A stretch of 64,000 nt of DNA from Bacteroidia bacterium. Lineage in GTDB: Bacteria; Bacteroidota; Bacteroidia; UKL13-3. Below the pieces are notes generated by a model, which was not told the DNA's origin, searched no databases, and worked only from the letters and a program-made list of their open reading frames with translations. The stretch covers positions 9,087 to 73,086 of the forward strand of contig JBIINH010000001.1 of the NCBI GenBank assembly GCA_044337585.1, written 5' to 3'. Every line of letters starts with the position of its first letter. Within the stretch, counting starts at the first letter, position 1. Positions 1,685-54,209 of this stretch are shown here, piece by piece. A program made the position numbers and the translations under genes.

Positions 1685-2692
1685 ATGGCACTAATTGAAT
1701 TTACGGAAAAGGGAATGTATGTTGCCCAAGCAGGTGTATACATCGATCCATGGAGAGGCGTAGATCGCGCCATCATCACTCACGGGCACAGTGATCATGC
1801 CAGAAGCGGAAGCGAACACTACCTATCTCATGTGCAATCGTTACCCATTTTGAGAAGAAGAATAGGAAATCAACAATTTCAAGGTGTGGTTTATGGTGAA
1901 TCAATTAATATAAATGGAGTAAAGTTTTCATTACATCCTGCGGGTCATGTTTTGGGTTCATCACAAGTGAGGGTTGAATACAAAGGTGAGATATGGGTTG
2001 CTAGTGGCGATTATAAATTAGAAAATGATGGGGTGAGCCCTGCCTTTGAGCCCGTAAATTGCCATACATTCATCACAGAGTCTACTTTTGGTTTACCTGT
2101 ATTTAATTGGCAACCCCAACATACAATCATGAATGAGATTAACGATTGGTGGAAACTTAATAAGGAAAAAGGAATGTGCAGCATATTGCTTGCATACTCA
2201 TTAGGAAAAGCGCAACGTATCCTTCAACATATCGACCCATCAATTGGTAATGTATATGTGCATGGCTCAGTCGCATCTATGAACGAAGCCTATGAGGAAG
2301 CTGGCATAACTTTAAATAAATATCAAAAGCCTACAGCTGATTTGCCTAAATCTGCTTATGCCGGAGCCTTGGTTATTGCACCATCGAGCACAGAAAACTC
2401 ATCATGGATGAAACGATTTGAACCTTACAGCACTGGTATTGCAAGCGGTTGGATGGCCATGCGTGGATTTAGGAGAAGGATGTCGGCTGATAGGGGATTT
2501 GTATTAAGTGACCATGCTGATTGGGCCGGATTGAATAAAGCCATTTCTGCTACAGGTGCCTCTAAAATATTGGTTACTCATGGATATACACAGCCTTTCT
2601 CCCGTTGGCTAAACGAAAAGGGATTAGAAGCACATGCCGTTCAAACCCGATTTACGGGTGAGTCTCCGGAAAATAAAGACGAACCAGTGTGA
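1685..2692 (+). CDS. ligase-associated DNA damage response exonuclease (metallo-beta-lactamase/beta-CASP fold)
   Basis: Carries the HGHSDH metallo-beta-lactamase motif. It ends 4 nt inside the start of the ATP-dependent ligase (2689), so the two are translationally coupled. Co-operonic with the Lhr-like helicase. Confidence 0.8.
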   Translation: MALIEFTEKGMYVAQAGVYIDPWRGVDRAIITHGHSDHARSGSEHYLSHVQSLPILRRRIGNQQFQGVVYGESININGVKFSLHPAGHVLGSSQVRVEYKGEIWVASGDYKLENDGVSPAFEPVNCHTFITESTFGLPVFNWQPQHTIMNEINDWWKLNKEKGMCSILLAYSLGKAQRILQHIDPSIGNVYVHGSVASMNEAYEEAGITLNKYQKPTADLPKSAYAGALVIAPSSTENSSWMKRFEPYSTGIASGWMAMRGFRRRMSADRGFVLSDHADWAGLNKAISATGASKILVTHGYTQPFSRWLNEKGLEAHAVQTRFTGESPENKDEPV

Positions 2693-4269
2693 AAGCATTT
2701 GTTGATTTGTTTCAGGCTCTTGATCGCACTACCCGCACCAATGAGAAAATAGATGCGCTCTGTAAATATTTGCAGAACGCTAGTGATGAAGATAAACTAT
2801 GGACCATCGCCTTATTTACAGACCGGCAACCTAAGCGAGCAGTAAAATCAACAGAGTTGAGGGCTTGGGCTGCCGATGCTGCTAGTATTCCTTTGTGGTT
2901 GCTTGAGGAATCATGGCATACCGTGGGTGATTTGTCTGAAACGATTGCTTCTATTTTACCTAATTACATTTCCGAAAAAGAACAACCGTTAACCTACTGG
3001 ATTCAGTATATCCGCAATATGTATGGACTGAAAGAAGAAGAGAAAAAATCGCAGTTGCTCCAAGCATGGAAATCATTTTCGAAAGAGGAACGATTTGTAT
3101 TCAATAAGTTAACTTCAGGTAATTTTCGAGTGGGTGTTTCGCAAAAAATATTGGTAAAAGCACTTGCCAAATATTCAGATATTGCTGAAAATACCATTAC
3201 GCACCGATTAATGGGCAATTGGCATCCAGATGATGTTTCTTACGGAGAATTAATTACTGTGGGTAATGAAACCGATGATTTTTCGAAACCCTATCCCTTT
3301 TACTTAGCTTATTCATTAGAAAAGCAATTACCTGAATTAGGGGATATCAATGAATGGCAGGCAGAATATAAATGGGATGGTATTCGTTGCCAACTTATCA
3401 AACGAAATGGACAATTGTTTATTTGGTCTAGAGGCGAAGAACTCATCACCTCAGGTTTTCCCGAATTTGAGGATTTGATTGGAAAATTACCAGATGGAAC
3501 TGTTTTAGATGGAGAGTTATTGGCATGTAATAAAGGTATTCCAATGCCATTTCAAGAATTGCAAAAGCGTATTAGCCGCAAAAAAGTAACAACAAAGATT
3601 AAGGAACAAATTCCTGTTTCAATATTCGCATATGATTTGTTGGAGTTTGATAAAATAGATATTAGGGCCAACCCTTTGCGCGAAAGACGCTTCTTGCTTG
3701 AAGAGCTTGTTCGTAAAATAGACACACCATTATTACAGCTATCAGCAAAAATTGAAGTGAATCAATGGGAAGACCTAAAGGATATTCAACAAGCAGCAAG
3801 AAATAAAATGGCAGAAGGCTTGATGTTGAAGCAAATTCATTCGCCTTATCTTTCGGGTAGGAAAAAAGGCGATTGGTGGAAGTGGAAAGTAGATCCCTAT
3901 ACTGTTGATGCAGTTTTGCTGTATGCCCAAAGTGGCAGTGGTCGCAGGGCAAATCTCTACACTGACTATACTTTTGCCGTGTGGAATGATTCAGGGCAAT
4001 TGGTCCCTTTTGCAAAAGCATATTCTGGTTTGACGGATTCTGAAATATTGCAAGTAGATACTTGGATACGAAAAAACACAATTGAGAAATTTGGACCAGT
4101 TAGAAGTGTGAATCCTACACTAGTTTTCGAAATTGGATTTGAAGGCATTAATGCATCACCTAGGCATAAGTCAGGAATTGCAGTTAGGTTTCCCCGTATA
4201 CTTAGGTGGCGAAAGGATAAGCCAGCCTCAGAGGCTGACCATATTAACATTCTAAAGGGGCTGATGTAG
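2689..4269 (+). CDS. ATP-dependent DNA ligase (LADDR-associated, LigC-like)
   Basis: Ligase motif I (EYKWDGIR, KxDG adenylation lysine) is followed by OB-fold region motifs. 526 aa. Confidence 0.9.
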   Translation: MKAFVDLFQALDRTTRTNEKIDALCKYLQNASDEDKLWTIALFTDRQPKRAVKSTELRAWAADAASIPLWLLEESWHTVGDLSETIASILPNYISEKEQPLTYWIQYIRNMYGLKEEEKKSQLLQAWKSFSKEERFVFNKLTSGNFRVGVSQKILVKALAKYSDIAENTITHRLMGNWHPDDVSYGELITVGNETDDFSKPYPFYLAYSLEKQLPELGDINEWQAEYKWDGIRCQLIKRNGQLFIWSRGEELITSGFPEFEDLIGKLPDGTVLDGELLACNKGIPMPFQELQKRISRKKVTTKIKEQIPVSIFAYDLLEFDKIDIRANPLRERRFLLEELVRKIDTPLLQLSAKIEVNQWEDLKDIQQAARNKMAEGLMLKQIHSPYLSGRKKGDWWKWKVDPYTVDAVLLYAQSGSGRRANLYTDYTFAVWNDSGQLVPFAKAYSGLTDSEILQVDTWIRKNTIEKFGPVRSVNPTLVFEIGFEGINASPRHKSGIAVRFPRILRWRKDKPASEADHINILKGLM

Positions 4270-4294
4270 GAAATCTACATGAAATTAATTAACA

Positions 4295-4594
4295 TTGAAA
4301 TCGTTAAAAAATATGCTTATGTTACTCGCTAAAAGAATTAGAATGATACGCAAACAAAAGATGAAAACTCAAGAAGAGATTTGTCAAATAATTGGTATCA
4401 CCCAACCTGCCTACTCTCAATATGAGAATGAAGCTGCAAATATGACCTTTGGCACCATCATAAAAATTGCTGAAGCATTAGAGGTTCCAATCCCATTCTT
4501 AACAGATATTTATTCTGAACATACCGATTATGACGCTTGGAGAAATGATTTGCAATCTTATAAAGTAGTAAAAAAATTTGTAACAAATGAATAG
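4295..4594 (+). CDS. XRE-family helix-turn-helix transcriptional regulator (short, no peptidase domain)
   Basis: Lambda-Cro/XRE-like HTH (QEEICQIIGITQPAYSQYENE). The real start may be an internal Met (MLMLLAKRIR...). It overlaps the next gene by 8 nt. Confidence 0.7.
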   Translation: MKSLKNMLMLLAKRIRMIRKQKMKTQEEICQIIGITQPAYSQYENEAANMTFGTIIKIAEALEVPIPFLTDIYSEHTDYDAWRNDLQSYKVVKKFVTNE

Positions 4595-5132
4595 TATAAT
4601 AAAAACGTTAGCCTGGCCATTAGGAATTATTTCTTTAGCCTTACTAGTGATAGGACTTATTGCAGTTACCGCACCCAATATGACCATAGAAACACTGGTT
4701 TTATATTTTGCAGTAATGTTGCTGATTATTGGCAGTGTTCAGTTATTGATAGCCATTGTGCTAAGAAACAAAATGAAGCTTTGGTTGGCATTGGCATCCT
4801 TATCAGCGTTGTTTTTAGTTGCTGGGGGATACATGATCTACAACCCTGAAAAATCGAAAGTAGCATTCGAGAATGCCATTTCAATTTGGGCTGTTTCAAC
4901 AGGGATTATTCAGCTGTTTTTAGCCTTTCGCAACCAATCAACCCGCATATTCTTATTAAGCGGTGGCATATTGTCTATCATTATTGGCCTTATACTTTAT
5001 TTAAATGACAATACTCAGAATATGCAGTTTTTGTTCGGATTTTACACATTATTACTTAGCTTATTTATGTTACTTGTTGTGTTCAAAATTTTCAGAATGA
5101 AAACAGAACCAATTGAGTCTAGAAAGGTTTAA
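4587..5132 (+). CDS. DUF308/HdeD-like small multipass membrane protein
   Basis: 181 aa with about six hydrophobic helices and repeated GxxxG-like spacing typical of HdeD/DUF308. Translationally coupled to the HTH gene. Confidence 0.55.
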   Translation: MNSIIKTLAWPLGIISLALLVIGLIAVTAPNMTIETLVLYFAVMLLIIGSVQLLIAIVLRNKMKLWLALASLSALFLVAGGYMIYNPEKSKVAFENAISIWAVSTGIIQLFLAFRNQSTRIFLLSGGILSIIIGLILYLNDNTQNMQFLFGFYTLLLSLFMLLVVFKIFRMKTEPIESRKV

Positions 5133-5138
5133 CCTTAA

Positions 5139-7580
5139 GTGAACTCATCTCGTAACAAGCTAAATATTTCAAATGAATGGTTCCTTCTAAAAAAGTGGGA
5201 GCCATTTTTGTTTCAACTACAGTGCTGGGAAGCCTTTGATAAAGGAAAAAGCGGATTGCTAAATGCGCCAACAGGTTCTGGAAAAACCTATGCTTTGGCC
5301 CTACCTGCATTGGAATATATTGCTTCAAAAAAACAAAAAGGTGTAAAAGGGCTAATGGTTATTTGGATTACGCCAATAAGGGCATTAGCAAATGATTTAC
5401 AACATGCTATTTCCGATGCCGCTTCTTTTATATGTCCTGATGCAATTATAGCTGTTCGCACAGGAGATACTTCAACAAAAGAAAGGCAACAACAAAAACG
5501 AAATAGTCCAAATTTCCTTATCACCACACCAGAGAGTTTGCAATTGATGTTGGCACAAAAAGGCAGCACAACTATTTTTGAAAATTTAAGTTGCGTAGTT
5601 ATTGATGAATGGCACGAACTAATTGGAGGTAAACGTGGCGTTTTGGTTGAGTTAGCATTATCACGTTTGCGCAGCTTGATGCCTCAATTAAGAATATGGG
5701 GAATTAGCGCCACCATTGGCAATTTGGAAGAATCGATGGAAGTATTGCTTGGAAACAATGCTGCAAAAGGGGTGATGATAAAATCCAACTTACAAAAGCA
5801 AATTGAGGTTATTTCAATCATTCCGGATGAAATGGATACCTTTCCATGGGCAGGGCATTTGGGCACAAAACTCATTGATAAAGTTTTGCCCATCATACAT
5901 CAAGCAAAAACAACATTGGTGTTTACCAACACCCGTGCGCAAACTGAAATTTGGTATCAAGCATTATTAAATGCTATGCCAGAGTTGGCAGGCAGTATGG
6001 CCATGCATCATGGCTCAATCAATAATGATTTGCGCTATTGGGTGGAGCAACAATTGCACACCGGTGAATTAAAAGTAGTTGTCTGCACATCCAGTCTTGA
6101 CCTTGGCGTTGATTTTAGGCCGGTAGAGCAAGTGATTCAGGTTGGCGGTCCAAAGGGAATTGCACGTTTTTTGCAACGTGCAGGCAGAAGTGGGCATCAA
6201 CCAGGGGCGAAGAGCAAAATCTATTTTTTGCCAACACATGCTATTGAATTGATGGAAGCCTCTGCCATGCGTAAAGCCATCTCATTGCAAAAAATGGAAA
6301 GTAAAATTCCAGTTATACGTGCATTTGATGTGTTGTGTCAATACCTTGTTTCATTGGCCGTTGGAGATGGATTGGATGATAAAAAAGTTTATCAGGAAGT
6401 AAAATCAACATACTGTTTCAATAGCATCACGGATGATGAATGGGATTGGGTGATGCATTTCATCACACAAGGGGGAAAATCTTTGTATGCCTACGATGAG
6501 TTTAAAAAAGTGGAGTTGGATACAGATGGAAAATACCGTGTATTGAATAAGCGCATAGCCCTAAGGCATCGCCTATCAATTGGTGTTATTGTTAGTGATC
6601 CATCTATCGAAGTGAAATACATGAGCGGTTCGCGATTGGGAACAGTTGAAGAATATTTTATATCAAAAATGAAGCCCGGAGATGTGTTCACATTTGCTGG
6701 AAAAAGTTTAGAAATTGTACAATTCAAGGATTTGTCAGTTTTGGTTAGAAAGGTAAACAGAAAAGGAGCCATTGCCAGCTGGCAGGGTGGTCGATTGCCT
6801 TTATCAAACAAGCTTTCTGAAATGTTGCGAGAGGGTATTAGTGAATACCAAAACGGAGCCGAAAGGGATACCGAATATGCTGCTGTAGATAGGGTGTTGT
6901 CATTTCAACAAAAGCGTTCGTTATTGCCCACTAAACAAGAATTATTGATTGAGAAATTGCAGACCAAAGAAGGTTATCATGTATTTGTATATCCATTTGA
7001 AGGCCGAAACGTGCATGAAGGATTATCAGGATTGATGGCGTATCGCATTTCGCGTCAATTGCCCATTTCATTTTCAATTGCATTTAATGACTACGGATTT
7101 GAACTGCTAAGCGACCAACCCATACCAATAGAAAATGCTTTGGAAGAAGATGTATTTAGTGACAACGATTTGATAGCGGATATGATGCATAGTATCAATA
7201 GTATGGAAATGGCAAAAAGAAAATTCAGGGACATAGCCAATATAGCCGGACTAATCTTTACCGGGTTTCCCGGGAAAAACATGAAAACAAAACACTTGCA
7301 AGCATCCTCTTCTATGTTCTTTAAAGTACTATCCGAACATGAGCCCGATAATTTATTGGTGAAGCAAGCCTACGAAGAAGTATTGCTCGATCAGTTAGAA
7401 GAACTGAGGCTTCGCGAAACACTAAAAAGAATTGGCCAACAACAAATCAGGTTAGTTGAGTTGTCTCAGCCTTCGCCATTTGCTTTCCCAATAATGGTGG
7501 ACAGGCTTAGAGAAAAAATGTCTTCAGAAACAATTGAAGACAGAGTGAAGAAAATGCAAATCAAATTAATGAAAAGCTAA
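5139..7580 (+). CDS. ligase-associated DNA damage response DEXH-box helicase (Lhr-core-like)
   Basis: Walker A (NAPTGSGKT), DEWH box (VVIDEWHEL) and helicase C motifs (QRAGRSGH). 813 aa. Same operon as the ligase and exonuclease. Confidence 0.9.
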   Translation: MNSSRNKLNISNEWFLLKKWEPFLFQLQCWEAFDKGKSGLLNAPTGSGKTYALALPALEYIASKKQKGVKGLMVIWITPIRALANDLQHAISDAASFICPDAIIAVRTGDTSTKERQQQKRNSPNFLITTPESLQLMLAQKGSTTIFENLSCVVIDEWHELIGGKRGVLVELALSRLRSLMPQLRIWGISATIGNLEESMEVLLGNNAAKGVMIKSNLQKQIEVISIIPDEMDTFPWAGHLGTKLIDKVLPIIHQAKTTLVFTNTRAQTEIWYQALLNAMPELAGSMAMHHGSINNDLRYWVEQQLHTGELKVVVCTSSLDLGVDFRPVEQVIQVGGPKGIARFLQRAGRSGHQPGAKSKIYFLPTHAIELMEASAMRKAISLQKMESKIPVIRAFDVLCQYLVSLAVGDGLDDKKVYQEVKSTYCFNSITDDEWDWVMHFITQGGKSLYAYDEFKKVELDTDGKYRVLNKRIALRHRLSIGVIVSDPSIEVKYMSGSRLGTVEEYFISKMKPGDVFTFAGKSLEIVQFKDLSVLVRKVNRKGAIASWQGGRLPLSNKLSEMLREGISEYQNGAERDTEYAAVDRVLSFQQKRSLLPTKQELLIEKLQTKEGYHVFVYPFEGRNVHEGLSGLMAYRISRQLPISFSIAFNDYGFELLSDQPIPIENALEEDVFSDNDLIADMMHSINSMEMAKRKFRDIANIAGLIFTGFPGKNMKTKHLQASSSMFFKVLSEHEPDNLLVKQAYEEVLLDQLEELRLRETLKRIGQQQIRLVELSQPSPFAFPIMVDRLREKMSSETIEDRVKKMQIKLMKS

Positions 7581-17872: not shown

Positions 17873-19879
17873 CTACAACTGAACCCTATTTTTTTTGTAA
17901 AAAAGGTCCATACTTAATACATGTGGAATGCTGATGCAAGAAAGTAGAATAAAGAAAATGCTAATATAATCTGCACGGTTTAGCAACATAAATGCAACGA
18001 TTATAAATGCACCACCCATGCTAAATGGAAGCGATTTTTTCCAAAGTTGATACGTATTGGTTTTTAATGCTGTTTTTAAATGGCTCCATCCATGAAAGCT
18101 GTGTTGAATAACAAAGTATATGCCAAATGAAACTAGTAATGGCAACATACTTGAAATAAGGAGGTAGCTGAAAGTTAGAGCCATGCGCTTAGACTTATTG
18201 TAAACAATCATCAATATTGAAAGCATAGAAACGATAAGTTTCGAATACAATATTATTGGTTGGGTTAATGTTTGTAAATAGGTGTTAAGTTTCAAACCTT
18301 TTATGTGTTCAAGAACTGAAAGTGTTTCTTCGAAATGGAAAATCAAAATGAGCGCAAGCACCGATAGTCCCCACAAAAAAGAATTAGGGCCTTGTTTTAA
18401 ATTCCACTCATTGGTATCAGCTTGTCCGAAATGCCAAGCCGAGTATGCAATAAATGTAATTAATGCCAAATCGGGTAGGATAAACCAAATAGCGCCTAAC
18501 AAAGCGCCTTTGGCAAGATAGGCTGCAATAAATTTGATAAATTGCCTCTGCCCGTTAATTTTCTGATCGGTTAAATGATCAACTGCACCATGTGATAAAC
18601 CAATTGTTAAAAAGCCCAAACCTAAGAAAATCCAAAGTACTTCTTGCCATTGATTTATGTGCAAAAACAAAGATGCGAGTGTGAAGAGAAGTGCAGCTAA
18701 AGTGGGGGTGAGTGCAGATATTTTGTAGCTCACATCTTTTACTGCGGTTTTTAAAAAAAGTGCGATAGGGAGTTTCGAAAAAATATGAATCTCGTTAGGT
18801 ATACTTGTTTTTTCATTTAAAAAAGTGAGAACCTTAGAGATGGGAATATTTGTGAATAAGCATTGAAAAATTTCTTTGCCTCGGCTGGGTGATAATTCTA
18901 AAATTTTAAGTAATAACCTATCGTAGAATTTAAATCTAGAAATACGATTATTGCGTTTATATAATTCTCCTTTTTGGATTGCCTCGGCTAGGCTTTTAGC
19001 ATCTTTAGCCATAGCATGAAAAGCATATCCAGTTGAGGGTTTTATCATATTTGCTTTTGCACCCGTATATAACCAATTTGCTCCATAATGATTATTGGCT
19101 ATTGTTGCCGAAGACATTGGAACCACACCTATCTCTTTGTCTAAAATAGTATAGTTGATTCCCAATTTTTGGATATACTCTTTAAATATGATTTCGGCAT
19201 CATGCTTGGAGATAATCTCTTTACCAAATCTAGTAATTTCAAATAGCGCAGTGCGATCTGTGAATGGGAGTATATACATAAATTGGCATGCATCATTTTG
19301 TGCAATGTCAAAATCCATCATCGTTGCTGTGCTAGTATCAAATTCAGCATTTGTTGTTTGAATTTCCCAACCATAAAAAGATTGGTACAAATGGCTTTGG
19401 TTGTTTTTAGGTGGAGAAAATATAGGTGGTCGGCTGTCGAATACTTTTTGGGCAATTATTTTGTCATTTCCTACATCAACCTGATATGAGTTGTTGTTGA
19501 GTATGTTTGGTTCGTTGCTAAGTGAGGTTGTGTAGAATTGAGTTGTTTCCTTCTTTAGGATTTCTTTGGCTTTGTTGTATAAATCTATTCCCTTGATATG
19601 GAAATAATTTAGGGGAGTGATGTGCTGTTTCAAGCCATTCACGTTAATGTGGCTCCATGATGAACTGATGAGTTGTTGAAGATTTAGTTCAGATACTTCT
19701 TCTTCACTTGTCCAGAAACAGAAGGTTCTGTCATTTACATTTTTGCTACTAGGTTCAATTACAGCAATCTTTTTATCCTTCAATAGGCCTTTTTCAAACA
19801 AGTTAAGCAACAACAAAGAATTGGCTGCTCCTAATCCAATAAATAGGAAGTCAACTTCGATGTTCATATTACTTTTCAT
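17873..19879 (-). CDS. fusion protein with an N-terminal CrtY-type lycopene beta-cyclase domain and a C-terminal Brp/Blh beta-carotene 15,15'-dioxygenase domain
   Basis: N-terminal about 380 aa has the FAD/Rossmann motif DFLFIGLGAANSLLL and the CrtY blocks (DRTFCFW, QFMYILPF...LFEITRF, KPSTGYAF). C-terminal about 290 aa is a 7-TM domain with conserved His residues (GAVDH, WHFGQAD, QHSFHGWSH) typical of Blh. It is one uninterrupted 668-aa ORF. Confidence 0.8.
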   Translation of the reverse strand: MKSNMNIEVDFLFIGLGAANSLLLLNLFEKGLLKDKKIAVIEPSSKNVNDRTFCFWTSEEEVSELNLQQLISSSWSHINVNGLKQHITPLNYFHIKGIDLYNKAKEILKKETTQFYTTSLSNEPNILNNNSYQVDVGNDKIIAQKVFDSRPPIFSPPKNNQSHLYQSFYGWEIQTTNAEFDTSTATMMDFDIAQNDACQFMYILPFTDRTALFEITRFGKEIISKHDAEIIFKEYIQKLGINYTILDKEIGVVPMSSATIANNHYGANWLYTGAKANMIKPSTGYAFHAMAKDAKSLAEAIQKGELYKRNNRISRFKFYDRLLLKILELSPSRGKEIFQCLFTNIPISKVLTFLNEKTSIPNEIHIFSKLPIALFLKTAVKDVSYKISALTPTLAALLFTLASLFLHINQWQEVLWIFLGLGFLTIGLSHGAVDHLTDQKINGQRQFIKFIAAYLAKGALLGAIWFILPDLALITFIAYSAWHFGQADTNEWNLKQGPNSFLWGLSVLALILIFHFEETLSVLEHIKGLKLNTYLQTLTQPIILYSKLIVSMLSILMIVYNKSKRMALTFSYLLISSMLPLLVSFGIYFVIQHSFHGWSHLKTALKTNTYQLWKKSLPFSMGGAFIIVAFMLLNRADYISIFFILLSCISIPHVLSMDLFYKKNRVQL

Positions 19880-19896
19880 GATTGTAGTGTTAGTTT

Positions 19897-19935
19897 AAAA
19901 AAAGAAGACACCTGTTATAATAAACAGATGTCTTC
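19897..19935 (-). terminator. rho-independent terminator downstream of the rhodopsin gene
   Basis: On the minus strand: 12-bp stem (gaagacatctgt/acaggtgtcttc, one mismatch), 8-nt loop, then a TTTTTTT run. It sits between the rhodopsin stop (19957) and the crtY-blh start (19879). Confidence 0.55.
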
Positions 19936-19956
19936 TTCAATTTCTTTTGTAAAGGA

Positions 19957-20673
19957 TTAGTCTTCAGTTCTGCTTAAAGCATAAATTACTAAACCAAAAC
20001 CAATTTTGTTAATGGCATCTGCAATATTGTAAACGATGTCCATAGCTTTGAGTGCTGCAGTAGTATCTGATACTAATTGCATTCCAAATAATCCACCTGG
20101 AGTTCCCAAAATGTAACCTAGTGGATAAATAGCCCATCCCACTAGAACAAACCATCCTAAAATCTTGGTTGCTTTGGCTACTTGTGCACCTGCATTTTGC
20201 GAAAGTTGCGCAACTTCTCCAAACCATACCAAATAAACAATGTAGAAATAAGCGATACCAGATAAAACTCCCCACAATACACTTCCGTCTCTGTCTAAAA
20301 CTTCACCTACATAACCAGTAACCAACATCACAAGTGATGCAAAAATAAGTTTCCATAATAACCCAATCTTAGCACCCGCTTTTTTGGTGATTAAATAAAA
20401 CTCAACACACATTAATGGCACTGTCAATATCCAATCTACATAACGGAAGAAGGTTGGAGAATCACCAGTTTCTAAATTGTAACCTCTCATGTAGTAGTAA
20501 TGTACTGCTGCGATAAAGGTAATAAGTCCAGAAACAAGGACTGAAGTGCGCCATTTTTGAGAAGTGTTGCCTAACTCAAAAAAGAAGAATACAGATGCGG
20601 CCATCATGGCCATAGTTCCGATAAAAAATGTGAATGCCACATAATTATCACTAGCGATTTTTAAGTGTTCCAT
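19957..20673 (-). CDS. microbial rhodopsin, proteorhodopsin/xanthorhodopsin-type light-driven proton pump
   Basis: Seven-TM protein. Helix C reads RYVDWILTVPLMCVEFYL, giving Asp proton acceptor, Thr, Glu proton donor (DTE motif) and Met at the position-105 tuning site. Helix G carries the Schiff-base Lys in DAINKIGFGL. Confidence 0.9.
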   Translation of the reverse strand: MEHLKIASDNYVAFTFFIGTMAMMAASVFFFFELGNTSQKWRTSVLVSGLITFIAAVHYYYMRGYNLETGDSPTFFRYVDWILTVPLMCVEFYLITKKAGAKIGLLWKLIFASLVMLVTGYVGEVLDRDGSVLWGVLSGIAYFYIVYLVWFGEVAQLSQNAGAQVAKATKILGWFVLVGWAIYPLGYILGTPGGLFGMQLVSDTTAALKAMDIVYNIADAINKIGFGLVIYALSRTED

Positions 20674-20992
20674 GTTTATTTGTTTAATTATTGTTACGAA
20701 GACTTGAACAAGATGAGTTCTTTAAAAGTTTTTATATTTTGTTTGTTTAAGACATATTATTTTTGTTTAATTAAACTTAAACAGTCTCTAAAGGCTTGTT
20801 ATTCCTGATAGTTTACTGTTTTTTATTCACAGGTTAACTTTTATTTAATCAAAAAATTTAAGTTAGTTTTAATGTGCAAAATAAAAATGATATTAGGTTT
20901 AGTTAATAATATAGGACAGACTTTAACCTCTTTTTTAAGTCTATTTATAAGGAAAAAGAAGCAGACGTGGGTTGTAAAGTAAATTTGTAACT

Positions 20993-21922
20993 TTAGCTAT
21001 TCGTCTGTGTATGTTTATCTGTATTTTTATAGGAATTGTGTATGAGCAATATTAAGTACCCAAATACAACTGCACTAATTATGAGTGCATTATTAATTAA
21101 TCCTTCCACCGAAAATGACAATTTGATCAGTATTGTAGAGATGACAAAGCCTGAATTACGAATGATGGTATGAAAACTGTCTGAATAGAAAAATGAAAAC
21201 AAAAGCAATAGCACATCAATGATGATTAGGAGAATAAAAAAGTCTTCAAAAAATACATTGTTGATGTACTTAAATGTGGTGATATCGTTCCAATTGCTTT
21301 GATTACTTATAATAATCCATTGTGCAAACGAGTATAAAGCAAGGATGATAACTATAGGTATCAATACTTTTGCAATGATATTCTTCAGTTGTATAAATGT
21401 GCCAATTCGTAGCTTTTCAACTTCGCTTTTGTTTGTGCTGCTGTTCAGTGAGAATTTCTCGAGGTTGCGGTAAAATTGTTGAATTAAGAAAAATAGAATA
21501 ATGGCCGTTGCCAAATCATAGGTAAACTGAAGGTCATTTTGAAGATTAAACCAGTTGGAAGACATTTCAATATTCCCAATGTCTTTGAAAATTCTACGGA
21601 TTACTATGAGGGTGATGATTTCGTATTGCTTACCTATGTATGTAGAGGTGGATTTTGGTAAATAATAAACCAAAAGAAAAACTTCATAAACAAGAATAAA
21701 AGAGAAAGGGGTGTAAACAGCAGATATTGGATTTTTAGTGAGTTTGGAATTAAGGTGAATGATATCTTCGCTTACCAAAAAAATTACAGATAAGTGTAAG
21801 AGAAAACTGATTATTGCAATCCAAATTGTGGTTTGCTCTAGTTTTTCCCTGAACTTGTCAGTAAGTAAATGATTGAAAATATTTAGCATTTTTATCAAAC
21901 TAATCCATTTCGGATTAATCAC
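20993..21922 (-). CDS. polytopic membrane protein of unknown function (about 8 TM)
   Basis: 309 aa, very hydrophobic, with no recognisable channel or transporter signature. It lies directly upstream of, and co-directional with, the rhodopsin gene. Confidence 0.5.
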   Translation of the reverse strand: MINPKWISLIKMLNIFNHLLTDKFREKLEQTTIWIAIISFLLHLSVIFLVSEDIIHLNSKLTKNPISAVYTPFSFILVYEVFLLVYYLPKSTSTYIGKQYEIITLIVIRRIFKDIGNIEMSSNWFNLQNDLQFTYDLATAIILFFLIQQFYRNLEKFSLNSSTNKSEVEKLRIGTFIQLKNIIAKVLIPIVIILALYSFAQWIIISNQSNWNDITTFKYINNVFFEDFFILLIIIDVLLLLFSFFYSDSFHTIIRNSGFVISTILIKLSFSVEGLINNALIISAVVFGYLILLIHNSYKNTDKHTQTNS

Positions 21923-22038: not shown

Positions 22039-22749
22039 TTACAATGTATTCAGCAGCTGTTCCATCATTTTGCCGTTCCACTTGCCATGAAACTTGTAAG
22101 GAACAAATCGGGCAAACATTTCCTCATTATACCAATTGAGTTTTCGGGTGAGTTGCACAACTTCCTTATGATGTTGATTTTTATAGGCATAATCCATCAT
22201 TTCTGCTTTAGTCTTCCATACGCTTAAGGTTGCTTGCTGTATCAAAGGCCATTCGCCCACACCAATGGATAATACTAGTCCCGTGTAATTTTCTAAGCTT
22301 TTACTCACTTTGCCCACTTTGCTCCAAAACGAAAGCAGTTTCGAGAAACGGATTGTGGCCCTTGTTAAAACCATTACAGGTTTATCTGCTACCAATTGGG
22401 CAGATTGCTCGAAAGGTTGCATTCCATCCCATTTGCCATGTACCTCAGCTGCTTGAGCATAAACCGTAAAATATTCTGTACTTTTTGATTGGTATTTTTT
22501 TAAGTAGTTTTTTGTAGTTAAAAATTGATTAGCTGCTTCTTCAGATTTCCAAACACACAACAAAACGTAAGTGCCAAAGTTGGGTATTGCACTAAATCCA
22601 TTCTTTGCTCCGGAGCCTAATAATTTATAGAAAACCAATCCATCTGCTCCCTTTATAGATTTGTGGCCGAATTGCATTTGGGTAAATGCCCACAATTTAT
22701 TTCTCAAACCCTCTAATTTAAAGAATGTACAGGTTGTAATTTGATTCAT
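22039..22749 (-). CDS. CrtA-like (spheroidene monooxygenase / carotenoid 2-hydroxylase-like) protein, tentative
   Basis: 236 aa. The N-terminal pattern (TCTFFKLEGLRNKLWAFTQMQFG...FYKLLGSG) recalls the CrtA/CrtA-OH family. Assignment is from memory of the family, not from a search. Confidence 0.4.
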   Translation of the reverse strand: MNQITTCTFFKLEGLRNKLWAFTQMQFGHKSIKGADGLVFYKLLGSGAKNGFSAIPNFGTYVLLCVWKSEEAANQFLTTKNYLKKYQSKSTEYFTVYAQAAEVHGKWDGMQPFEQSAQLVADKPVMVLTRATIRFSKLLSFWSKVGKVSKSLENYTGLVLSIGVGEWPLIQQATLSVWKTKAEMMDYAYKNQHHKEVVQLTRKLNWYNEEMFARFVPYKFHGKWNGKMMEQLLNTL

Positions 22750-23997: not shown

Positions 23998-24606
23998 TCA
24001 TCTTCTCCACTTAATTCCACAACCAATCGCTTTTGTACTTGTAGTGGTTACAGCTTTGTTGCTAAGTAGTGCATCAACAGCTTGCTCAACGTATTTGGAT
24101 TTTACCTGTGATGGGTCTTCGTAGTTGTCGTCAATGGCCCCAATATATTGAACAGTAAGTCCTTTATCGCCTTTTTTCAATACATATACATGAGGGGTTC
24201 GGGTGGCTCCGTAGATTTTAGCCGTGCCTTGTGTTTCATCAATTAAATACGGAAATCCATATTTCATTTCTTTCGCACGTTTTTGCATGTTTTGATATGA
24301 ATCCTCTGGTTCGCGTGCAGGATCGTTGGGGTTGATAGCAATTACCGGAAATCCTTTGGCTGCATATTTTTTGTGCAAGTCTATCATGCGGTTTTCGTAT
24401 GCTTTGGCAAAAGGACAATGGTTGCAGGTGAATACAATAATAAATCCTTTGGCTGATTTGTAGTTGGCCAATGAAACCATTTTTCCATCAATATTTTTTA
24501 GTGAAAAATCAGCTGCAATATCACCAGGTTGATAACCCATAGGCGCAGGGGTTTGGAAGGCGCTTAATGCAAAAGCCAATACGGTAATCAGGATTATTTT
24601 TTTCAT
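23998..24606 (-). CDS. thioredoxin-fold thiol:disulfide oxidoreductase (secreted)
   Basis: Signal peptide and a CxxC active site (CNHC) in a thioredoxin/redoxin fold. Confidence 0.7.
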   Translation of the reverse strand: MKKIILITVLAFALSAFQTPAPMGYQPGDIAADFSLKNIDGKMVSLANYKSAKGFIIVFTCNHCPFAKAYENRMIDLHKKYAAKGFPVIAINPNDPAREPEDSYQNMQKRAKEMKYGFPYLIDETQGTAKIYGATRTPHVYVLKKGDKGLTVQYIGAIDDNYEDPSQVKSKYVEQAVDALLSNKAVTTTSTKAIGCGIKWRR

Positions 24607-24621
24607 GTTATTATGTTTTTA

Positions 24622-25194
24622 TTAATATGGATTTTTTTGTGCTTCTAATATTTTTAGCTGTATGTCGCCAATGGTAACTTCGCCTTCTTGAAACCACATG
24701 TATCCATTGTGTTTGTTAAAAACCAAGGTGGCAGGAATAGCTCCACTCCAATTTGGGTTCACTGTATTTATCCAATCATTTGGGTTTGATTCATTCATCC
24801 ATAGTACTTGTGAGCGGATGTCTTTTTCTGTAATAAAAGTAGCCAATTTGGTATCGCGAATTTTTTTGCTGTCGGTACTTATCAAGAGTACGGTTACATT
24901 TTGTCCTACAAATCCATCGCGTACCAAATTAAATATAGGAAGCTCTTCTACGCAAGGTTTACACCAGGTGGCCCAAAAATTAATTACATAGGTGCTGTCA
25001 CTCATTTGGTTAAAACGTTCTTCGAGCCATTCTTTGTTTACGTAGGTAAAAGGTACAGATGCGGCAGGCTGTGGACTCAAATTGCCACTATTTGCTGGGT
25101 TTACTGATGCTTTATCATCGGGCAATGCTACCGATTGGGCTTTGACAAAAGTGCTAAGAAACAGAAGTGGGATAAAAAATAAAAGGTATTTCAT
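24622..25194 (-). CDS. TlpA-family thiol-disulfide oxidoreductase
   Basis: Signal peptide and a WCxPC active site (WATWCKPC). Confidence 0.75.
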   Translation of the reverse strand: MKYLLFFIPLLFLSTFVKAQSVALPDDKASVNPANSGNLSPQPAASVPFTYVNKEWLEERFNQMSDSTYVINFWATWCKPCVEELPIFNLVRDGFVGQNVTVLLISTDSKKIRDTKLATFITEKDIRSQVLWMNESNPNDWINTVNPNWSGAIPATLVFNKHNGYMWFQEGEVTIGDIQLKILEAQKNPY

Positions 25195-30066: not shown

Positions 30067-31188
30067 ATGCAAAAAATATCATACCTATTTATCGTAGGAT
30101 TTGTGCTGCTAAGCTCAGCTTGCAGCCAGTCAAAAGAAAAGCCAGGCAACTTTTCGGTTAAAGGCAATATTAAAAATTATACCGGTCCTGCTTTGCAATT
30201 AAGCGAAATCACAACAACTGGTCTAAAATTTATCGACTCCACTTTGGTAGATGCCAAAGGCAATTTTGAATTTAAAAACAGCGTATCGCATCCTACATTT
30301 GCCATTATTGGTTTTAGCAATACAGCAATTGTACTGTTGCTCGACTCTGGTGCTACAACCACCTTATCCATTGATTCAAAAACACCAGAAGCTTATGGCG
30401 TATCTGGCACATTAGAAAACGAACAATTGCGTCAAATCATTTTAATGAATAACAAATACATGATGCAAGTAAATGAATTGGAACGTAGATATACAGAAGC
30501 GGCCCAACAAAAAACCATGACTGTTGAAATGGAAAACAAAATTAAAACAGAATATCAAGGTTTGATGGATGCCCGTACCAATGAGCTTAAGGAAAAAACA
30601 TTGTCAATTGAAAGTGGCTTGGTTCCTTATTTTGTTACCAACTTTTTGATGCCTGAAGCCGACTTCGAATTTTTCAACAAAGTAGATGAAAAGTTTTACA
30701 ACCGCTACACTGATTCTAAATATGCACAAGACTTACACAAAAGGGTAGTGAAGCTAAAAGGTACCGCCACTGGCCAGCAGGTAGCAGATATTGTGTTACA
30801 AGATCCATATGGAAAAACCATTGCACTATCATCACTCAGGGGAAAATATGTACTTATTGATTTTTGGGCAAGTTGGTGTGGTCCCTGTAGGCGCGAAAAT
30901 CCAAACGTGGTAAAGATGTATCAGAAATATAAAGACAAAGGATTTGATATTTACAGTGTGTCGCTTGACGACAATAAAGATTCTTGGATGAAAGCCATCA
31001 ATGCCGACCAATTGCTATGGCCAAATCATGTGAGCGACTTGCAAAAATGGAATTCATCGGTGGTTCCACAATTTAATATTGAAAGTATACCCTTTACTAT
31101 GTTGATTGATGCTGAGGGTAAAATTATAGGCAAAAACCTTAGAGGTGAAGCGCTTGAGCAAAAATTGAAAGCTATTTTCAATTATTAA
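30067..31188 (+). CDS. TlpA/AhpC-TSA-family thioredoxin lipoprotein (DUF4369-like N-terminal domain + thioredoxin domain)
   Basis: Lipobox LLSSAC and a WCGPC active site (WASWCGPCRRE). Confidence 0.75.
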   Translation: MQKISYLFIVGFVLLSSACSQSKEKPGNFSVKGNIKNYTGPALQLSEITTTGLKFIDSTLVDAKGNFEFKNSVSHPTFAIIGFSNTAIVLLLDSGATTTLSIDSKTPEAYGVSGTLENEQLRQIILMNNKYMMQVNELERRYTEAAQQKTMTVEMENKIKTEYQGLMDARTNELKEKTLSIESGLVPYFVTNFLMPEADFEFFNKVDEKFYNRYTDSKYAQDLHKRVVKLKGTATGQQVADIVLQDPYGKTIALSSLRGKYVLIDFWASWCGPCRRENPNVVKMYQKYKDKGFDIYSVSLDDNKDSWMKAINADQLLWPNHVSDLQKWNSSVVPQFNIESIPFTMLIDAEGKIIGKNLRGEALEQKLKAIFNY

Positions 31189-43515: not shown

Positions 43516-43675
43516 GAGCGGGGCGAATATAGCATTTCTGTATATACATCGGTTGATGTCAAAAATAACTTACTTAGCCAAGTACTACAGTAGTCAAATA
43601 GGCGTTTACATAAGTTGCACAGCATGGAATAAATGTTATTTTTGCCTTATTCATAACAACCTAAATTCTATACAA

Positions 43676-46216: not shown

Positions 46217-46220
46217 TTAG

Positions 46221-46631
46221 ATGGATACCAAGGAAACAACATTTCAATTGGTGAATTTGCCAAAGTTTTTAGATGAACGGGGAAACCTTTCATTTATAGA
46301 AGCCAAAAGACAGGTGCCATTTGATATTGCTCGCTCATATTGGATATACGATGTGCCTGGAGGTGAAACACGCGGTGGGCACAGTTATTATCAAAATGAA
46401 GAATTGATAGTTGCACTCTCTGGCAGCTTTGATGTGGTGATTGATGATGGCAAACAATCGCATAAAATTTCACTCAACCGATCTTATTACGGTTTGTATA
46501 TTCCAAAAGGATTTTGGCGTCACATGGAAAATTTTTCCACCAATGCATTGGCGCTTGTGCTAGCATCAACTGCATTTGATGCTTCCGATTATGAAAGAGA
46601 CCACGAACGATATATCAATAGCAAAGCATGA
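46221..46631 (+). CDS. FdtA/WxcM-like sugar 3,4-ketoisomerase cupin (paralog 1, divergent active site)
   Basis: WxcM-like C-terminal/FdtA cupin fold. The catalytic His-x-His position reads GHSYY. Confidence 0.7.
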   Translation: MDTKETTFQLVNLPKFLDERGNLSFIEAKRQVPFDIARSYWIYDVPGGETRGGHSYYQNEELIVALSGSFDVVIDDGKQSHKISLNRSYYGLYIPKGFWRHMENFSTNALALVLASTAFDASDYERDHERYINSKA

Positions 46632-47586: not shown

Positions 47587-47594
47587 TAATATTC

Positions 47595-49990: not shown

Positions 49991-49993
49991 GTT

Positions 49994-54200: not shown

Positions 54201-54209
54201 TTGAGCTAC

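What the first reader, a model, noticed from the sequence alone, without database searches (positions are those of the whole stretch)
19957..20673. Proteorhodopsin-type proton-pumping rhodopsin with DTE motif and Met at the spectral-tuning site
Helix C reads RYVDWILTVPLMCVEFYL. This gives the Asp97-equivalent proton acceptor, Thr101 and the Glu108-equivalent donor. The DTE motif indicates a proton pump rather than an NDQ sodium pump or NTQ chloride pump. The position-105 equivalent is Met, which in flavobacterial proteorhodopsins goes with green absorption. The Schiff-base Lys is present in helix G (DAINKIGFGL). A rhodopsin in this non-marine-looking Bacteroidota context, coupled to its own retinal-synthesis gene, suggests light-supplemented energetics.
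Basis: partly seen in the sequence, partly recalled or inferred. Interest (0 to 1): 0.6.

Follow-up and report, generated by a model that had tools for sequence, protein, structure and literature searches.

The report
Freshwater Bacteroidota green proteorhodopsin proton pump
This is a real but ordinary light-driven proton pump gene (a green-absorbing proteorhodopsin) from a lake Bacteroidota bacterium, next to a fused enzyme gene that makes its retinal pigment. It belongs to a very large clade that is already catalogued, and a freshwater flavobacterial pump of the same type has been tested experimentally.

Summary
A 238-aa ORF lies at 19957..20673 on the minus strand. It matches Pfam Bac_rhodopsin (9.7e-42). 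Its closest solved relative is the Nonlabens marinus proteorhodopsin NM-R1 (1e-86, about 61% identity, TM-score 0.86-0.89).

Alignment to bacteriorhodopsin (BR), green proteorhodopsin (GPR) and NM-R1 fixes the register: R77, D80/T84/E91 (the DTE motif), M88 at the tuning site, H58, D219 and the Schiff-base K223.

- G135 sits at the "fenestration" position (XR G156). This marks the carotenoid-antenna-capable type typical of Bacteroidota.
- The downstream "retinal gene" is a lycopene cyclase-Blh fusion. It is fused in 50 of 80 related loci.
- A strong terminator hairpin separates the two genes. One is present in 75 of 78 orthologous loci, against 2 of 50 genes in this window.
- A CrtA-like carotenoid hydroxylase gene lies two genes upstream.

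Thousands of proteins 86-96% identical occur in freshwater Bacteroidota MAGs. Synonymous sites are saturated (dN/dS about 0.04), so the conservation reflects purifying selection and not recent transfer. The exact protein is already public and annotated "bacteriorhodopsin". A fenestrated freshwater flavobacterial PR (EinA29G6) has been characterised.

Verdict: a new member of a known kind, of low interest.

The parts
19957..20673 (-). Proteorhodopsin-clade opsin gene, 238 aa, with no signal peptide-like extension
   Evidence: ORF. Pfam Bac_rhodopsin 9.7e-42. PDB best hit NM-R1 at 1e-86. AF2 model is a 7-TM bundle, pLDDT 82.5, pTM 0.80. Foldseek top hit is 9jou, TM 0.86/0.89.
20392..20445 (-). 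Helix C segment RYVDWILTVPLMCVEFYL: R77, D80 (proton acceptor), T84, M88 (spectral tuning site, GPR 105), E91 (proton donor)
   Evidence: Alignment to BR, GPR and NM-R1. R77, T84, M88 and E91 are invariant in all 121 clade sequences; D80 is Asp in 120 of 121.
20269..20271 (-). Gly135 codon, the fenestration position (BR W138, GPR F152, NM-R1 G142, XR G156)
   Evidence: Alignment. Invariant in the clade. Role of this Gly taken.
20005..20007 (-). Lys223 codon, the retinal Schiff-base lysine in helix G. D219 (counterion, GPR D227) and N222 (GPR N230) lie just upstream of it in the protein.
20500..20502 (-). His58 codon, equivalent to GPR His75, the His that characterises the PR/XR clade and partners with the acceptor Asp
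   Evidence: His in 119 of 121 clade sequences
20065..20085 (-). Seven-residue insertion in the F-G loop (FGMQLVS, residues 196-202) relative to NM-R1. It lies next to positions that clamp the carotenoid ring in NM-R1 (W201/Y202, which are G194/L195 here).
   Evidence: HMMER and MAFFT alignments agree on it. It is conserved across the clade as GGLFGxQLVxD. The model has low confidence here, pLDDT 64-74.
19894..19938 (-). Intrinsic-terminator-like element between the opsin stop codon and the crtY-blh start: a 16-bp perfect stem with a 6-nt loop (19901-19938), then U7 (19894-19900)
   Evidence: RNA fold gives -22.1 kcal/mol, z = -3.9, with 0 of 200 shuffles as stable. A hairpin plus T-run at the same place occurs in 75 of 78 orthologous loci, with unrelated sequences. 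Only 2 of 50 genes in this window have one.
17873..19879 (-). 668-aa fusion protein: a lycopene cyclase domain (aa 10-374) joined to a Brp/Blh beta-carotene 15,15'-dioxygenase domain (aa 419-660). It is the retinal supply gene.
   Evidence: Pfam Lycopene_cycl 2.1e-43 and BCD 3.8e-34. TIGR03753 at 139 bits, above its cutoff of 95; the cyclase models fall below NCBIfam cutoffs. Fused in 50 of 80 related loci. More than 1,200 homologues with both domains.
20674..20992 (-). 319-bp AT-rich (23% GC) upstream intergenic leader and promoter region. The promoter was not located.
   Evidence: There is no exact TAnnTTTG on the gene's strand, no Rfam family, and no DNA conservation with other species.
22039..22749 (-). 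CrtA-like (DUF3291) gene two genes upstream, probably a carotenoid psi-end 2-hydroxylase (CrtA-OH type) of the myxol pathway. This is a possible link to antenna carotenoids. The adjacency is specific to this lineage.
   Evidence: NCBIfam NF045923 at 1.2e-63 and 214 bits, full length but below the equivalog cutoff of 300. CrtA-OH function from PMC11855829. No homologue lies near the rhodopsin in L001-L080.

Best explanation
The gene encodes a retinal-binding, light-driven outward proton pump of the proteorhodopsin clade, of the Bacteroidota subtype.

Inferred mechanism, by homology to GPR and NM-R1:
- All-trans retinal is bound as a protonated Schiff base to K223.
- Green light (Met88 at the tuning site) isomerises the retinal.
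- The Schiff-base proton passes to D80, which sits in a counterion complex with R77 and D219 and is modulated by H58.
- The Schiff base is reprotonated from the cytoplasmic side through E91.
- The net result is proton export and a supplement to the proton-motive force in a lake heterotroph.

Retinal supply. The adjacent CrtY-Blh fusion should cyclise lycopene to beta-carotene and cleave it at the 15,15' bond. The strong terminator conserved between the two genes suggests an abundant monocistronic opsin transcript. The enzyme would then be made at a lower level, either by read-through or from its own promoter.

Antenna. Position 135 is Gly, so the protein very probably has the lateral fenestration that lets a hydroxylated carotenoid (zeaxanthin, lutein or a myxol type) dock and act as a light-harvesting antenna. 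This has been shown for NM-R1, KR1 and the freshwater flavobacterial PR EinA29G6.

What is shown: family membership, residue register, fold, synteny, the terminator structure and its conservation, and purifying selection.

What is inferred: proton pumping, the absorption maximum, carotenoid binding, bifunctionality of the fusion, and the transcript architecture.
For: - Family and fold.
- Residue register: DTE, M88, H58, R77, D219, K223, and the retinal-pocket residues W81, W180, Y183, P184 and Y187. All are invariant or nearly so in 121 clade members.
- Ranking of relatives: NM-R1 1e-86, then Med12 BPR 2e-51, GPR 1e-48, HOT75 BPR 2e-43, ESR 2e-34, XR 4e-27 and KR2 about 1e-11.
- NM-R1 is an experimentally shown DTE proton pump that binds myxol and zeaxanthin. 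Nearly all Bacteroidota PRs carry Met105 and Gly156.
- The fenestrated freshwater flavobacterial PR EinA29G6 binds xanthophylls with 40% energy transfer, and the non-fenestrated GPR does not.
- Selection: median pS 0.72, dN about 0.08, dN/dS about 0.02-0.1 across 75 orthologues.
- Retinal gene.
- Terminator.
- The same 5.8-kb locus recurs at 99.8-99.9% nucleotide identity in three independent metagenomes.
Against: - No functional data exist for this protein or its immediate clade; everything mechanistic is by homology.
- No promoter could be assigned.
- The window holds no crtE, crtB, crtI or crtZ, so the host's ability to make lycopene or xanthophylls is not shown here. Pfam covered every ORF of at least 120 aa up to 55.5 kb. 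The ORFs from 55.5 to 64 kb were not scanned.
- The cyclase half of the fusion scores below NCBIfam's cutoffs (87 bits against 209).
- Several residues that clamp the carotenoid ring in NM-R1 differ here: W139 to V132, M195 to I188, W201 to G194, Y202 to L195. The F-G loop also has a 7-aa insertion. Antenna binding may therefore differ or be absent despite the Gly.
Confidence: 0.88

Rival explanations
1. It is a sensory rhodopsin, as JGI labels some clade members. On this reading it would signal light to a transducer and not pump protons.
For: Several near-identical proteins carry the automatic JGI name 'sensory rhodopsin'.
Against: - It has a carboxylate proton donor (E91) together with the full D/T/E triad and the PR-clade His58. 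Own knowledge: sensory rhodopsins typically lack the donor carboxylate.
- No transducer (HAMP/MCP) gene is adjacent. The neighbours are a retinal-synthesis fusion, an unannotated membrane protein and a CrtA-like gene.
- All the top-ranked solved relatives are proton pumps; a flotillin-associated rhodopsin appears only further down, at about 31% identity.
- The same JGI pipeline names other members 'bacteriorhodopsin', so the label carries no weight.
Confidence: 0.03
2. It belongs to the xanthorhodopsin/actinorhodopsin family, the family that dominates freshwater, and not to the proteorhodopsin family.
For: The habitat is freshwater. The protein has a DTE motif and a fenestration Gly, both also found in XRs.
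Against: Sequence and fold both rank PRs well above XRs. NM-R1 scores 1e-86 and GPR 1e-48, against Gloeobacter rhodopsin 1e-29, XR 4e-27, Kin4B8 1e-23 and Rhodoluna ActR 2e-28. Identity is 61% to NM-R1 and 41% to GPR, against 28-33% to XR-family structures.
Confidence: 0.04
3. It pumps another ion (Na+ or Cl-), or pumps protons inward.
For: Bacteroidota often carry NaR and ClR paralogues alongside PR.
Against: The motif is DTE, not NDQ or NTQ. KR2-type pumps score only about 1e-11. The ClR NM-R3 does not appear among the top hits.
Confidence: 0.02
4. The gene was recently transferred horizontally. This would explain why it is 86-96% identical across orders while its neighbour is only 26-58% identical.
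For: There is a large disparity in protein identity between the opsin and the adjacent fusion. Near-identical opsins appear in MAGs labelled with very different taxa.
Against: Synonymous sites are saturated: median pS is 0.72, nucleotide identity is only 71-82%, and dS exceeds 1 in every pair. The genes are therefore anciently diverged and held by purifying selection. The odd taxon labels (Methylotenera, Polynucleobacter, Synechococcus, Bifidobacterium) sit on contigs with the same Bacteroidota-type synteny and look like binning or label errors.
Confidence: 0.03

Closest known systems
NM-R1, the proteorhodopsin of Nonlabens marinus S1-08 (PDB 9JOV/9JOU; Fujiwara et al., bioRxiv 10.1101/2024.11.08.622755)
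   Same: It is the closest solved relative (1e-86, about 61% identity, TM 0.86-0.89). It shares the DTE motif (D87/T91/E98 matching D80/T84/E91), Met at the tuning site (M95 matching M88), the fenestration Gly (G142 matching G135), His65 matching H58, and K223. It comes from the same phylum.
   Different: NM-R1 comes from a marine member of the Flavobacteriaceae, and this protein from a lake bacterium. This protein has a 7-aa insertion in the F-G loop. It also differs at four of the six residues reported to hold the carotenoid ring in NM-R1: W139 to V, M195 to I, W201 to G and Y202 to L.
EinA29G6 (GenBank UJI09384), a fenestrated PR from an uncultured freshwater flavobacterium, and KR1 of Dokdonia eikasta (Chazan et al., bioRxiv 10.1101/2022.08.24.505090)
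   Same: Both are Bacteroidota PRs with Gly at XR position 156. EinA29G6 is also from freshwater. Both were shown to bind zeaxanthin and lutein and to transfer 35-40% of the absorbed energy to retinal.
Green-absorbing proteorhodopsin (GPR, SAR86; PDB 7B03, 2L6X)
   Same: It shares the fold, DTE, His75, R94, D227 and K231. Identity is 41%.
   Different: GPR has Leu at position 105 (Met here) and Phe152 blocking the fenestration (Gly here). It also has a signal peptide. In proteobacteria its retinal genes form a crtEIBY-blh operon (own knowledge).
PR loci of marine and other Flavobacteriia (Dokdonia MED134; Flavobacterium sp. TH167, PMC5887021)
   Same: PR lies directly next to blh, and the carotenoid genes are elsewhere in the genome.
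   Different: In those loci blh is a stand-alone gene oriented opposite to PR. Here, and in 50 of 80 related freshwater loci, blh is fused to a lycopene cyclase. It is co-directional with the opsin in all but one locus, usually downstream of it. A terminator hairpin follows the opsin stop in 75 of 78 loci.
Xanthorhodopsin and Kin4B8
   Same: They share DTE, the fenestration Gly and the carotenoid-antenna principle.
   Different: They are a different family, at 28-29% identity and E-values of 1e-23 to 1e-27.

Membership tests
Microbial (type-1) rhodopsin, Pfam PF01036 | Significant match to the family profile over the full length | tested here: met
   E = 9.7e-42 at 143 bits against a cutoff of 24.6, covering residues 13-234 of 238
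Microbial (type-1) rhodopsin, Pfam PF01036 | Seven-transmembrane helix bundle | tested here: met
   AF2 model with pLDDT 82.5 and pTM 0.80 shows seven long transmembrane helices plus short extra segments. Foldseek gives TM 0.72-0.89 to rhodopsin structures.
Microbial (type-1) rhodopsin, Pfam PF01036 | Schiff-base Lys in helix G, plus retinal-pocket residues (BR W86, W182, Y185, P186) | tested here: met
   K223, W81, W180, Y183 and P184; invariant in the clade
Microbial (type-1) rhodopsin, Pfam PF01036 | Covalent retinal binding with visible absorption | not testable with these tools
   Needs expression and spectroscopy
Proteorhodopsin-clade outward proton pump | D-T-E at BR 85/89/96 (GPR 97/101/108) | tested here: met
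   D80, T84 and E91, from two independent alignments
Proteorhodopsin-clade outward proton pump | Counterion complex (GPR R94, D227) and the clade-specific His75 | tested here: met
   R77, D219 and H58
Proteorhodopsin-clade outward proton pump | Closer to PRs than to the XR, NaR, ClR or BR families | tested here: met
   PRs score 1e-86 to 1e-43, XR family 1e-23 to 1e-30, KR2 about 1e-11 and BR about 1e-10. Foldseek gives the same order. No formal phylogeny was built.
Proteorhodopsin-clade outward proton pump | Light-driven proton extrusion | not testable with these tools
   Needs a pH-electrode assay in E. coli or liposomes
Bacteroidota green, fenestrated (antenna-capable) PR (NM-R1 / KR1 / EinA29G6 type) | Met at GPR position 105 | tested here: met
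   M88, present in 121 of 121 clade sequences.
Bacteroidota green, fenestrated (antenna-capable) PR (NM-R1 / KR1 / EinA29G6 type) | Gly at XR position 156 (fenestration) | tested here: met
   G135 aligns with BR W138, GPR F152 and NM-R1 G142. XR itself was not aligned. The equivalence to XR G156 comes through BR W138 as stated.
Bacteroidota green, fenestrated (antenna-capable) PR (NM-R1 / KR1 / EinA29G6 type) | Carotenoid-ring pocket as in NM-R1 (W139, L143, Y194, M195, W201, Y202) | tested here: inconclusive
   The pocket here is V132, V136, Y187, I188, G194, L195, plus a 7-aa loop insertion. Only Y194 is identical and L143 to V is conservative. The gap placement in the loop is arbitrary, so F196 could substitute as the aromatic residue.
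Bacteroidota green, fenestrated (antenna-capable) PR (NM-R1 / KR1 / EinA29G6 type) | Binding of a hydroxylated carotenoid and energy transfer to retinal | not testable with these tools
   Needs reconstitution and excitation spectra
Na+ pump (NDQ) or Cl- pump (NTQ) rhodopsins | N-D-Q or N-T-Q at BR 85/89/96 | tested here: not met
   The motif is D-T-E
Brp/Blh beta-carotene 15,15'-dioxygenase (neighbouring gene, C-terminal half) | Profile match above the curated cutoff | tested here: met
   TIGR03753 at 139 bits against a cutoff of 95; Pfam BCD 3.8e-34
Lycopene beta-cyclase CrtY (neighbouring gene, N-terminal half) | Profile match above the curated cutoff | tested here: inconclusive
   Pfam Lycopene_cycl is met, at 149 bits against a cutoff of 23.4. 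The NCBIfam models fall below their cutoffs: TIGR01790 at 87 against 209 and TIGR01789 at 51 against 215. An N-terminal dinucleotide-binding motif, DFLFIGLGAANS, is visible in the sequence.

The most novel reading that the evidence does not exclude
The freshwater Bacteroidota clade to which this gene belongs may be a distinct, uncharacterised photosystem module with three parts. The first is an opsin whose carotenoid site is remodelled: it has a 7-aa F-G loop insertion and lacks the Trp/Trp/Tyr ring clamp of NM-R1, so it may bind a different carotenoid or bind it in a different way. The second is a conserved terminator that sets the ratio of opsin to enzyme. The third is a bifunctional CrtY-Blh enzyme that converts lycopene straight to retinal. 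I found no description of this fusion in the searchable literature.
Probability: 0.3. Interest if true: 0.4.

Novelty: new member of a known kind. Interest (0 to 1): 0.2.

Why it matters
As a single gene it matters little, because it is one of thousands of near-identical and already annotated freshwater Bacteroidota proteorhodopsins. It does confirm that this lake heterotroph can supplement its energy budget with light.

The clade-level features are worth somewhat more. Purifying selection on the opsin is extreme. The cyclase-dioxygenase fusion is the dominant arrangement. A terminator lies between opsin and enzyme almost universally. The antenna site is altered. Together these would give a compact two-gene "lycopene-to-photosystem" cassette of possible use in synthetic biology. 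They also offer a test of how antenna binding varies between marine and freshwater PRs.

Tried and rejected
1. Linkage of the unannotated 309-aa membrane protein (20993..21922) to rhodopsin. It is adjacent to the opsin/fusion pair in 4 of 80 loci, in different gene orders. However, the family is very large, and three diverged members (L084, L085, L087) sit in unrelated neighbourhoods. I treat it as a bystander.
2. Recent horizontal transfer as the cause of 86-96% identity. Rejected because synonymous sites are saturated.
3. Promoter assignment. The sigma-70 scan was no better than shuffles (15 found against 18.8 expected). There is no exact Bacteroidota -7 box (TAnnTTTG) on the gene's strand in the leader, and that motif is not enriched in the window (99 found against 98 expected). 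The promoter remains unassigned.
4. Riboswitch or other known RNA in the leader or the hairpin region. Rfam gave nothing credible.
5. DNA-level conservation of the leader in other species. None was found.
6. Other carotenoid genes (crtE, crtB, crtI, crtZ, crtD, cruF) in the window. None was found by Pfam in any ORF of at least 120 aa up to 55.5 kb. The ORFs from 55.5 to 64 kb were not scanned. The only addition is the CrtA-like gene.
7. CruF identity for the 309-aa protein. There is no Pfam hit even at E = 10.
8. Literature on a bacterial CrtY-Blh fusion. Three full-text searches found no description. NCBI annotation of a Pedobacter protein does already name both halves.
9. The built-in terminator scanner missed the 16-bp hairpin. 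Direct folding found it.
Full report
**Observation.** The window holds an ATG-initiated ORF of 238 aa at exactly 19957..20673. The translation contains both quoted strings. RYVDWILTVPLMCVEFYL is residues 77-94 (window 20392-20445), and DAINKIGFGL contains Lys223. Chance is excluded. Pfam Bac_rhodopsin matches at 9.7e-42 over residues 13-234. phmmer against all PDB sequences gives 1e-86 to 9JOV/9JOU, 2e-51 to Med12 BPR, 1e-48 to GPR, 2e-43 to HOT75 BPR, 4e-27 to xanthorhodopsin and about 1e-11 to KR2.

**Register of the functional residues.** The HMMER alignments to NM-R1 and GPR have no gaps around helix C. A MAFFT alignment with bacteriorhodopsin, GPR and NM-R1 gives the same mapping. The BR sequence came from my own knowledge, and I checked its numbering at D85, T89, D96, W138 and K216. 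The mapping is:
- R77 = GPR R94 = BR R82
- D80 = D97 = D85
- T84 = T101 = T89
- M88 = L105 = L93
- E91 = E108 = D96
- H58 = GPR H75
- W180, Y183 and P184 = BR W182, Y185 and P186
- D219 = D227 = D212
- N222 = N230
- K223 = K231 = K216

The DTE motif, the Met at the tuning site and the Schiff-base lysine are therefore correctly registered. NDQ and NTQ are excluded. An AlphaFold2 model built on 37 clade sequences is a seven-helix bundle (pLDDT 82.5, pTM 0.80). Its best structural matches are NM-R1 (TM 0.86/0.89), then GPR and BPR, with XR-family and BR structures lower.

Residue 135 is Gly. It aligns with BR W138, GPR F152 and NM-R1 G142, which is the "fenestration" position (XR G156). According to Chazan et al. 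(10.1101/2022.08.24.505090) and Fujiwara et al. (10.1101/2024.11.08.622755), a Gly here opens a lateral window onto the retinal ring. It is required for binding a carotenoid antenna, whereas Phe or Trp block the window. Fujiwara et al. state that almost all Bacteroidota PRs combine Met at position 105 with Gly at position 156. 9JOV/9JOU is their NM-R1, a DTE proton pump that binds myxol and zeaxanthin. Chazan et al. showed xanthophyll binding and 40% energy transfer for EinA29G6, a fenestrated PR from an uncultured freshwater flavobacterium. This kind of protein is therefore already characterised experimentally.

This protein differs from NM-R1 in two ways near the antenna site. It has a seven-residue insertion in the F-G loop. 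It also differs at four of the six residues that Fujiwara et al. list as holding the carotenoid ring: W139 to V132, M195 to I188, W201 to G194 and Y202 to L195. Both features are invariant across the clade. The model is of low confidence in that loop, so I cannot say what this does to antenna binding.

**Population and habitat.** The large protein search returned 7,962 hits below 1e-30, with the top 120 at 87-94% identity. The scan of species-representative genomes gave 592 confirmed loci. The best 80 are 86-96% identical, and nearly all come from lake, reservoir, pond or river MAGs of Chitinophagales, Flavobacteriales, Sphingobacteriales, Saprospiraceae and Cytophagia. The exact 238-aa sequence is already in NCBI, JGI, ENA and Logan on 22 contigs, named "bacteriorhodopsin". 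The same 5.8-kb locus recurs at 99.8-99.9% nucleotide identity in three independent metagenomes. Other features fit a chromosomal Bacteroidota context: a T9SS sorting-domain gene, a SusC-like receptor, housekeeping genes and 36% GC.

All key residues are invariant or nearly so in 121 aligned clade members. The high protein identity is not due to recent transfer. Against 75 orthologues, nucleotide identity is only 71-82%, median pS is 0.72 (saturated), dN is about 0.08 and dN/dS is about 0.02-0.1. The opsin is under unusually strong purifying selection, while its neighbour has drifted to 26-58% identity.

**The retinal gene.** The downstream gene (17873..19879, minus strand, 668 aa) is a fusion. 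Its N-terminal half is a lycopene cyclase (Pfam 2.1e-43, aa 10-374). Its C-terminal half is a Brp/Blh beta-carotene 15,15'-dioxygenase (Pfam BCD 3.8e-34; TIGR03753 at 139 bits against a cutoff of 95). The cyclase half is below NCBIfam's cutoffs, so its exact specificity is uncertain. Among the 80 related loci the arrangement is as follows:

| Arrangement next to the opsin | Loci |
|---|---|
| Single fused ORF | 50 |
| Separate, overlapping crtY and blh genes | 3 |
| blh alone | 6 |
| Cut by a contig end | 4 |
| Neither gene within the flank | 17 |

More than 1,200 two-domain homologues exist. NCBI names a Pedobacter one "Brp/Blh family ... /lycopene cyclase-like protein". In previously described PR-bearing Bacteroidetes, blh is a stand-alone gene oriented opposite to PR (PMC5887021). 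The co-directional fused arrangement is therefore a variant. I found no paper describing it.

**Transcript architecture.** The opsin stop codon and the start of the fusion gene are 77 bp apart. That gap holds a perfect 16-bp stem with a 6-nt loop, followed by U7. It folds at -22.1 kcal/mol, with z = -3.9 and none of 200 shuffles as stable. A hairpin of -14 kcal/mol or stronger followed by a T-run lies 12-50 nt after the opsin stop in 75 of 78 orthologous loci, and the sequences are unrelated. By the same test only 2 of 50 genes in this window qualify, and the opsin's hairpin is the strongest. My inference is that the opsin is made as an abundant, largely monocistronic mRNA. The chromophore enzyme would be expressed at a lower level, by read-through or from its own promoter. 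The 319-bp leader is 23% GC. It has no recognisable promoter, no Rfam family and no conservation across species.

**Other neighbours.**
- Two genes upstream, 22039..22749 (DUF3291) matches NCBIfam's CrtA model end to end (1.2e-63 at 214 bits, below the cutoff of 300). In Flavobacteriia, CrtA homologues are carotenoid 2-hydroxylases of the myxol pathway (PMC11855829). This is suggestive, since myxol is an NM-R1 antenna, but the adjacency is specific to this lineage.
- The 309-aa membrane protein between that gene and the opsin belongs to a huge unannotated Bacteroidota family. The family is not generally linked to rhodopsins.
- No other carotenoid genes lie in the window (the ORFs from 55.5 to 64 kb were not scanned).

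**Mechanism.** The most likely function is a green-light-driven outward proton pump, with confidence of about 0.88. Retinal is bound on K223. The Schiff-base proton goes to D80, within the R77/D219/H58 complex, and reprotonation comes through E91. Retinal is supplied by the adjacent CrtY-Blh. A hydroxylated carotenoid antenna is probable (about 0.6) because of G135. All of this is by homology and nothing was measured. The rival explanations (sensory rhodopsin, XR-family membership, another ion, recent transfer) are each contradicted by tests made here.

**Novelty and score.** This is a new member of a known kind, namely the fenestrated, Met105, DTE proteorhodopsins of Bacteroidota. That kind has an experimentally characterised freshwater representative and a solved structure of a marine one at about 61% identity. 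Interest is 0.2. The clade-level features hold the remaining interest. These are the fused lycopene-to-retinal enzyme, the near-universal terminator, the remodelled antenna site and the extreme conservation. They could be tested with the experiments listed.

Noticed in passing
window 17873-19879 (-); L002-L079: The retinal gene is a lycopene cyclase-Blh fusion. It is fused in 50 of 80 related freshwater Bacteroidota loci, and L062, L066 and L067 have separate overlapping crtY and blh genes. More than 1,200 two-domain homologues exist. No paper describing a bacterial CrtY-Blh fusion turned up in three searches.
   Followed up: partly
window 19894-19938 (-); the same position in L002-L080: A strong hairpin plus U-run follows the opsin stop in 75 of 78 orthologous loci, with unrelated sequences. 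This holds even where crtY-blh follows within about 100 bp. Only 2 of 50 genes in the window have a comparable element.
   Followed up: yes
window 22039-22749 (-): A 236-aa DUF3291 protein matches NCBIfam CrtA (spheroidene monooxygenase) over its full length at 1.2e-63, but below the equivalog cutoff. It is probably a CrtA-OH-type carotenoid 2-hydroxylase (myxol pathway). It lies two genes from the opsin in this lineage only.
   Followed up: partly
window 20993-21922 (-); L084, L085, L087: A 298/309-aa multi-pass membrane protein has no Pfam or NCBIfam hit. It belongs to a very large family (at least 8,000 hits) that is highly conserved (68-85% identity) in Bacteroidota and has unknown function. 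It sits next to the opsin/fusion pair in 4 of 80 loci but is unlinked elsewhere. One NCBI record calls it 'cation transport ATPase', which looks unfounded.
   Followed up: partly
L001-L080 versus window 19957-20673: The opsin is 86-96% identical in protein across several Bacteroidota orders, yet only 71-82% identical in DNA with saturated synonymous sites (dN/dS about 0.04). The adjacent fusion protein is only 26-58% identical. This is unusually strong constraint on the opsin.
   Followed up: yes
L020 577-1293 and 3958-4671: One Cryomorphaceae MAG contig carries two opsin copies about 3.4 kb apart. Both are 89% identical to the query, and a full-length fusion-gene match (35% identity) plus two short N-terminal matches lie on the same contig.
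   Followed up: no
L013, L022, L044, L048, L063, L071, L080 (record titles): Several MAGs labelled Methylotenera, Bifidobacterium, Comamonadaceae, Polynucleobacter, Rhizobium, Synechococcus or Competibacteraceae carry this Bacteroidota-type opsin at 86-90% identity. All except L080 also carry the fusion or blh gene next to it. This most likely reflects binning or labelling errors in public MAGs.
   Followed up: no
window 43514-60915 (+): This appears to be a long co-directional polysaccharide (capsule or O-antigen) biosynthesis cluster. It includes Poly_export/SLBB, two FdtA-like isomerases, a hexapeptide acyltransferase, UDP-sugar dehydrogenase, two DegT aminotransferases, Wzz, an epimerase and a flippase. 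The genes from 55.5 kb onward were not scanned by Pfam.
   Followed up: partly
window 1685-7580 (+): An ATP-dependent DNA ligase (2689-4269) and an Lhr-type helicase (5139-7580) lie downstream of a 335-aa ORF with no Pfam hit, with a small DUF308 gene between the ligase and the helicase. This may be a repair gene neighbourhood.
   Followed up: no
window 23998-25194 (-) and 30067-31188 (+): Three AhpC/TSA-thioredoxin-fold genes lie within 8 kb on the upstream side of the rhodopsin cluster. A possible link to light or oxidative stress is pure speculation.
   Followed up: no
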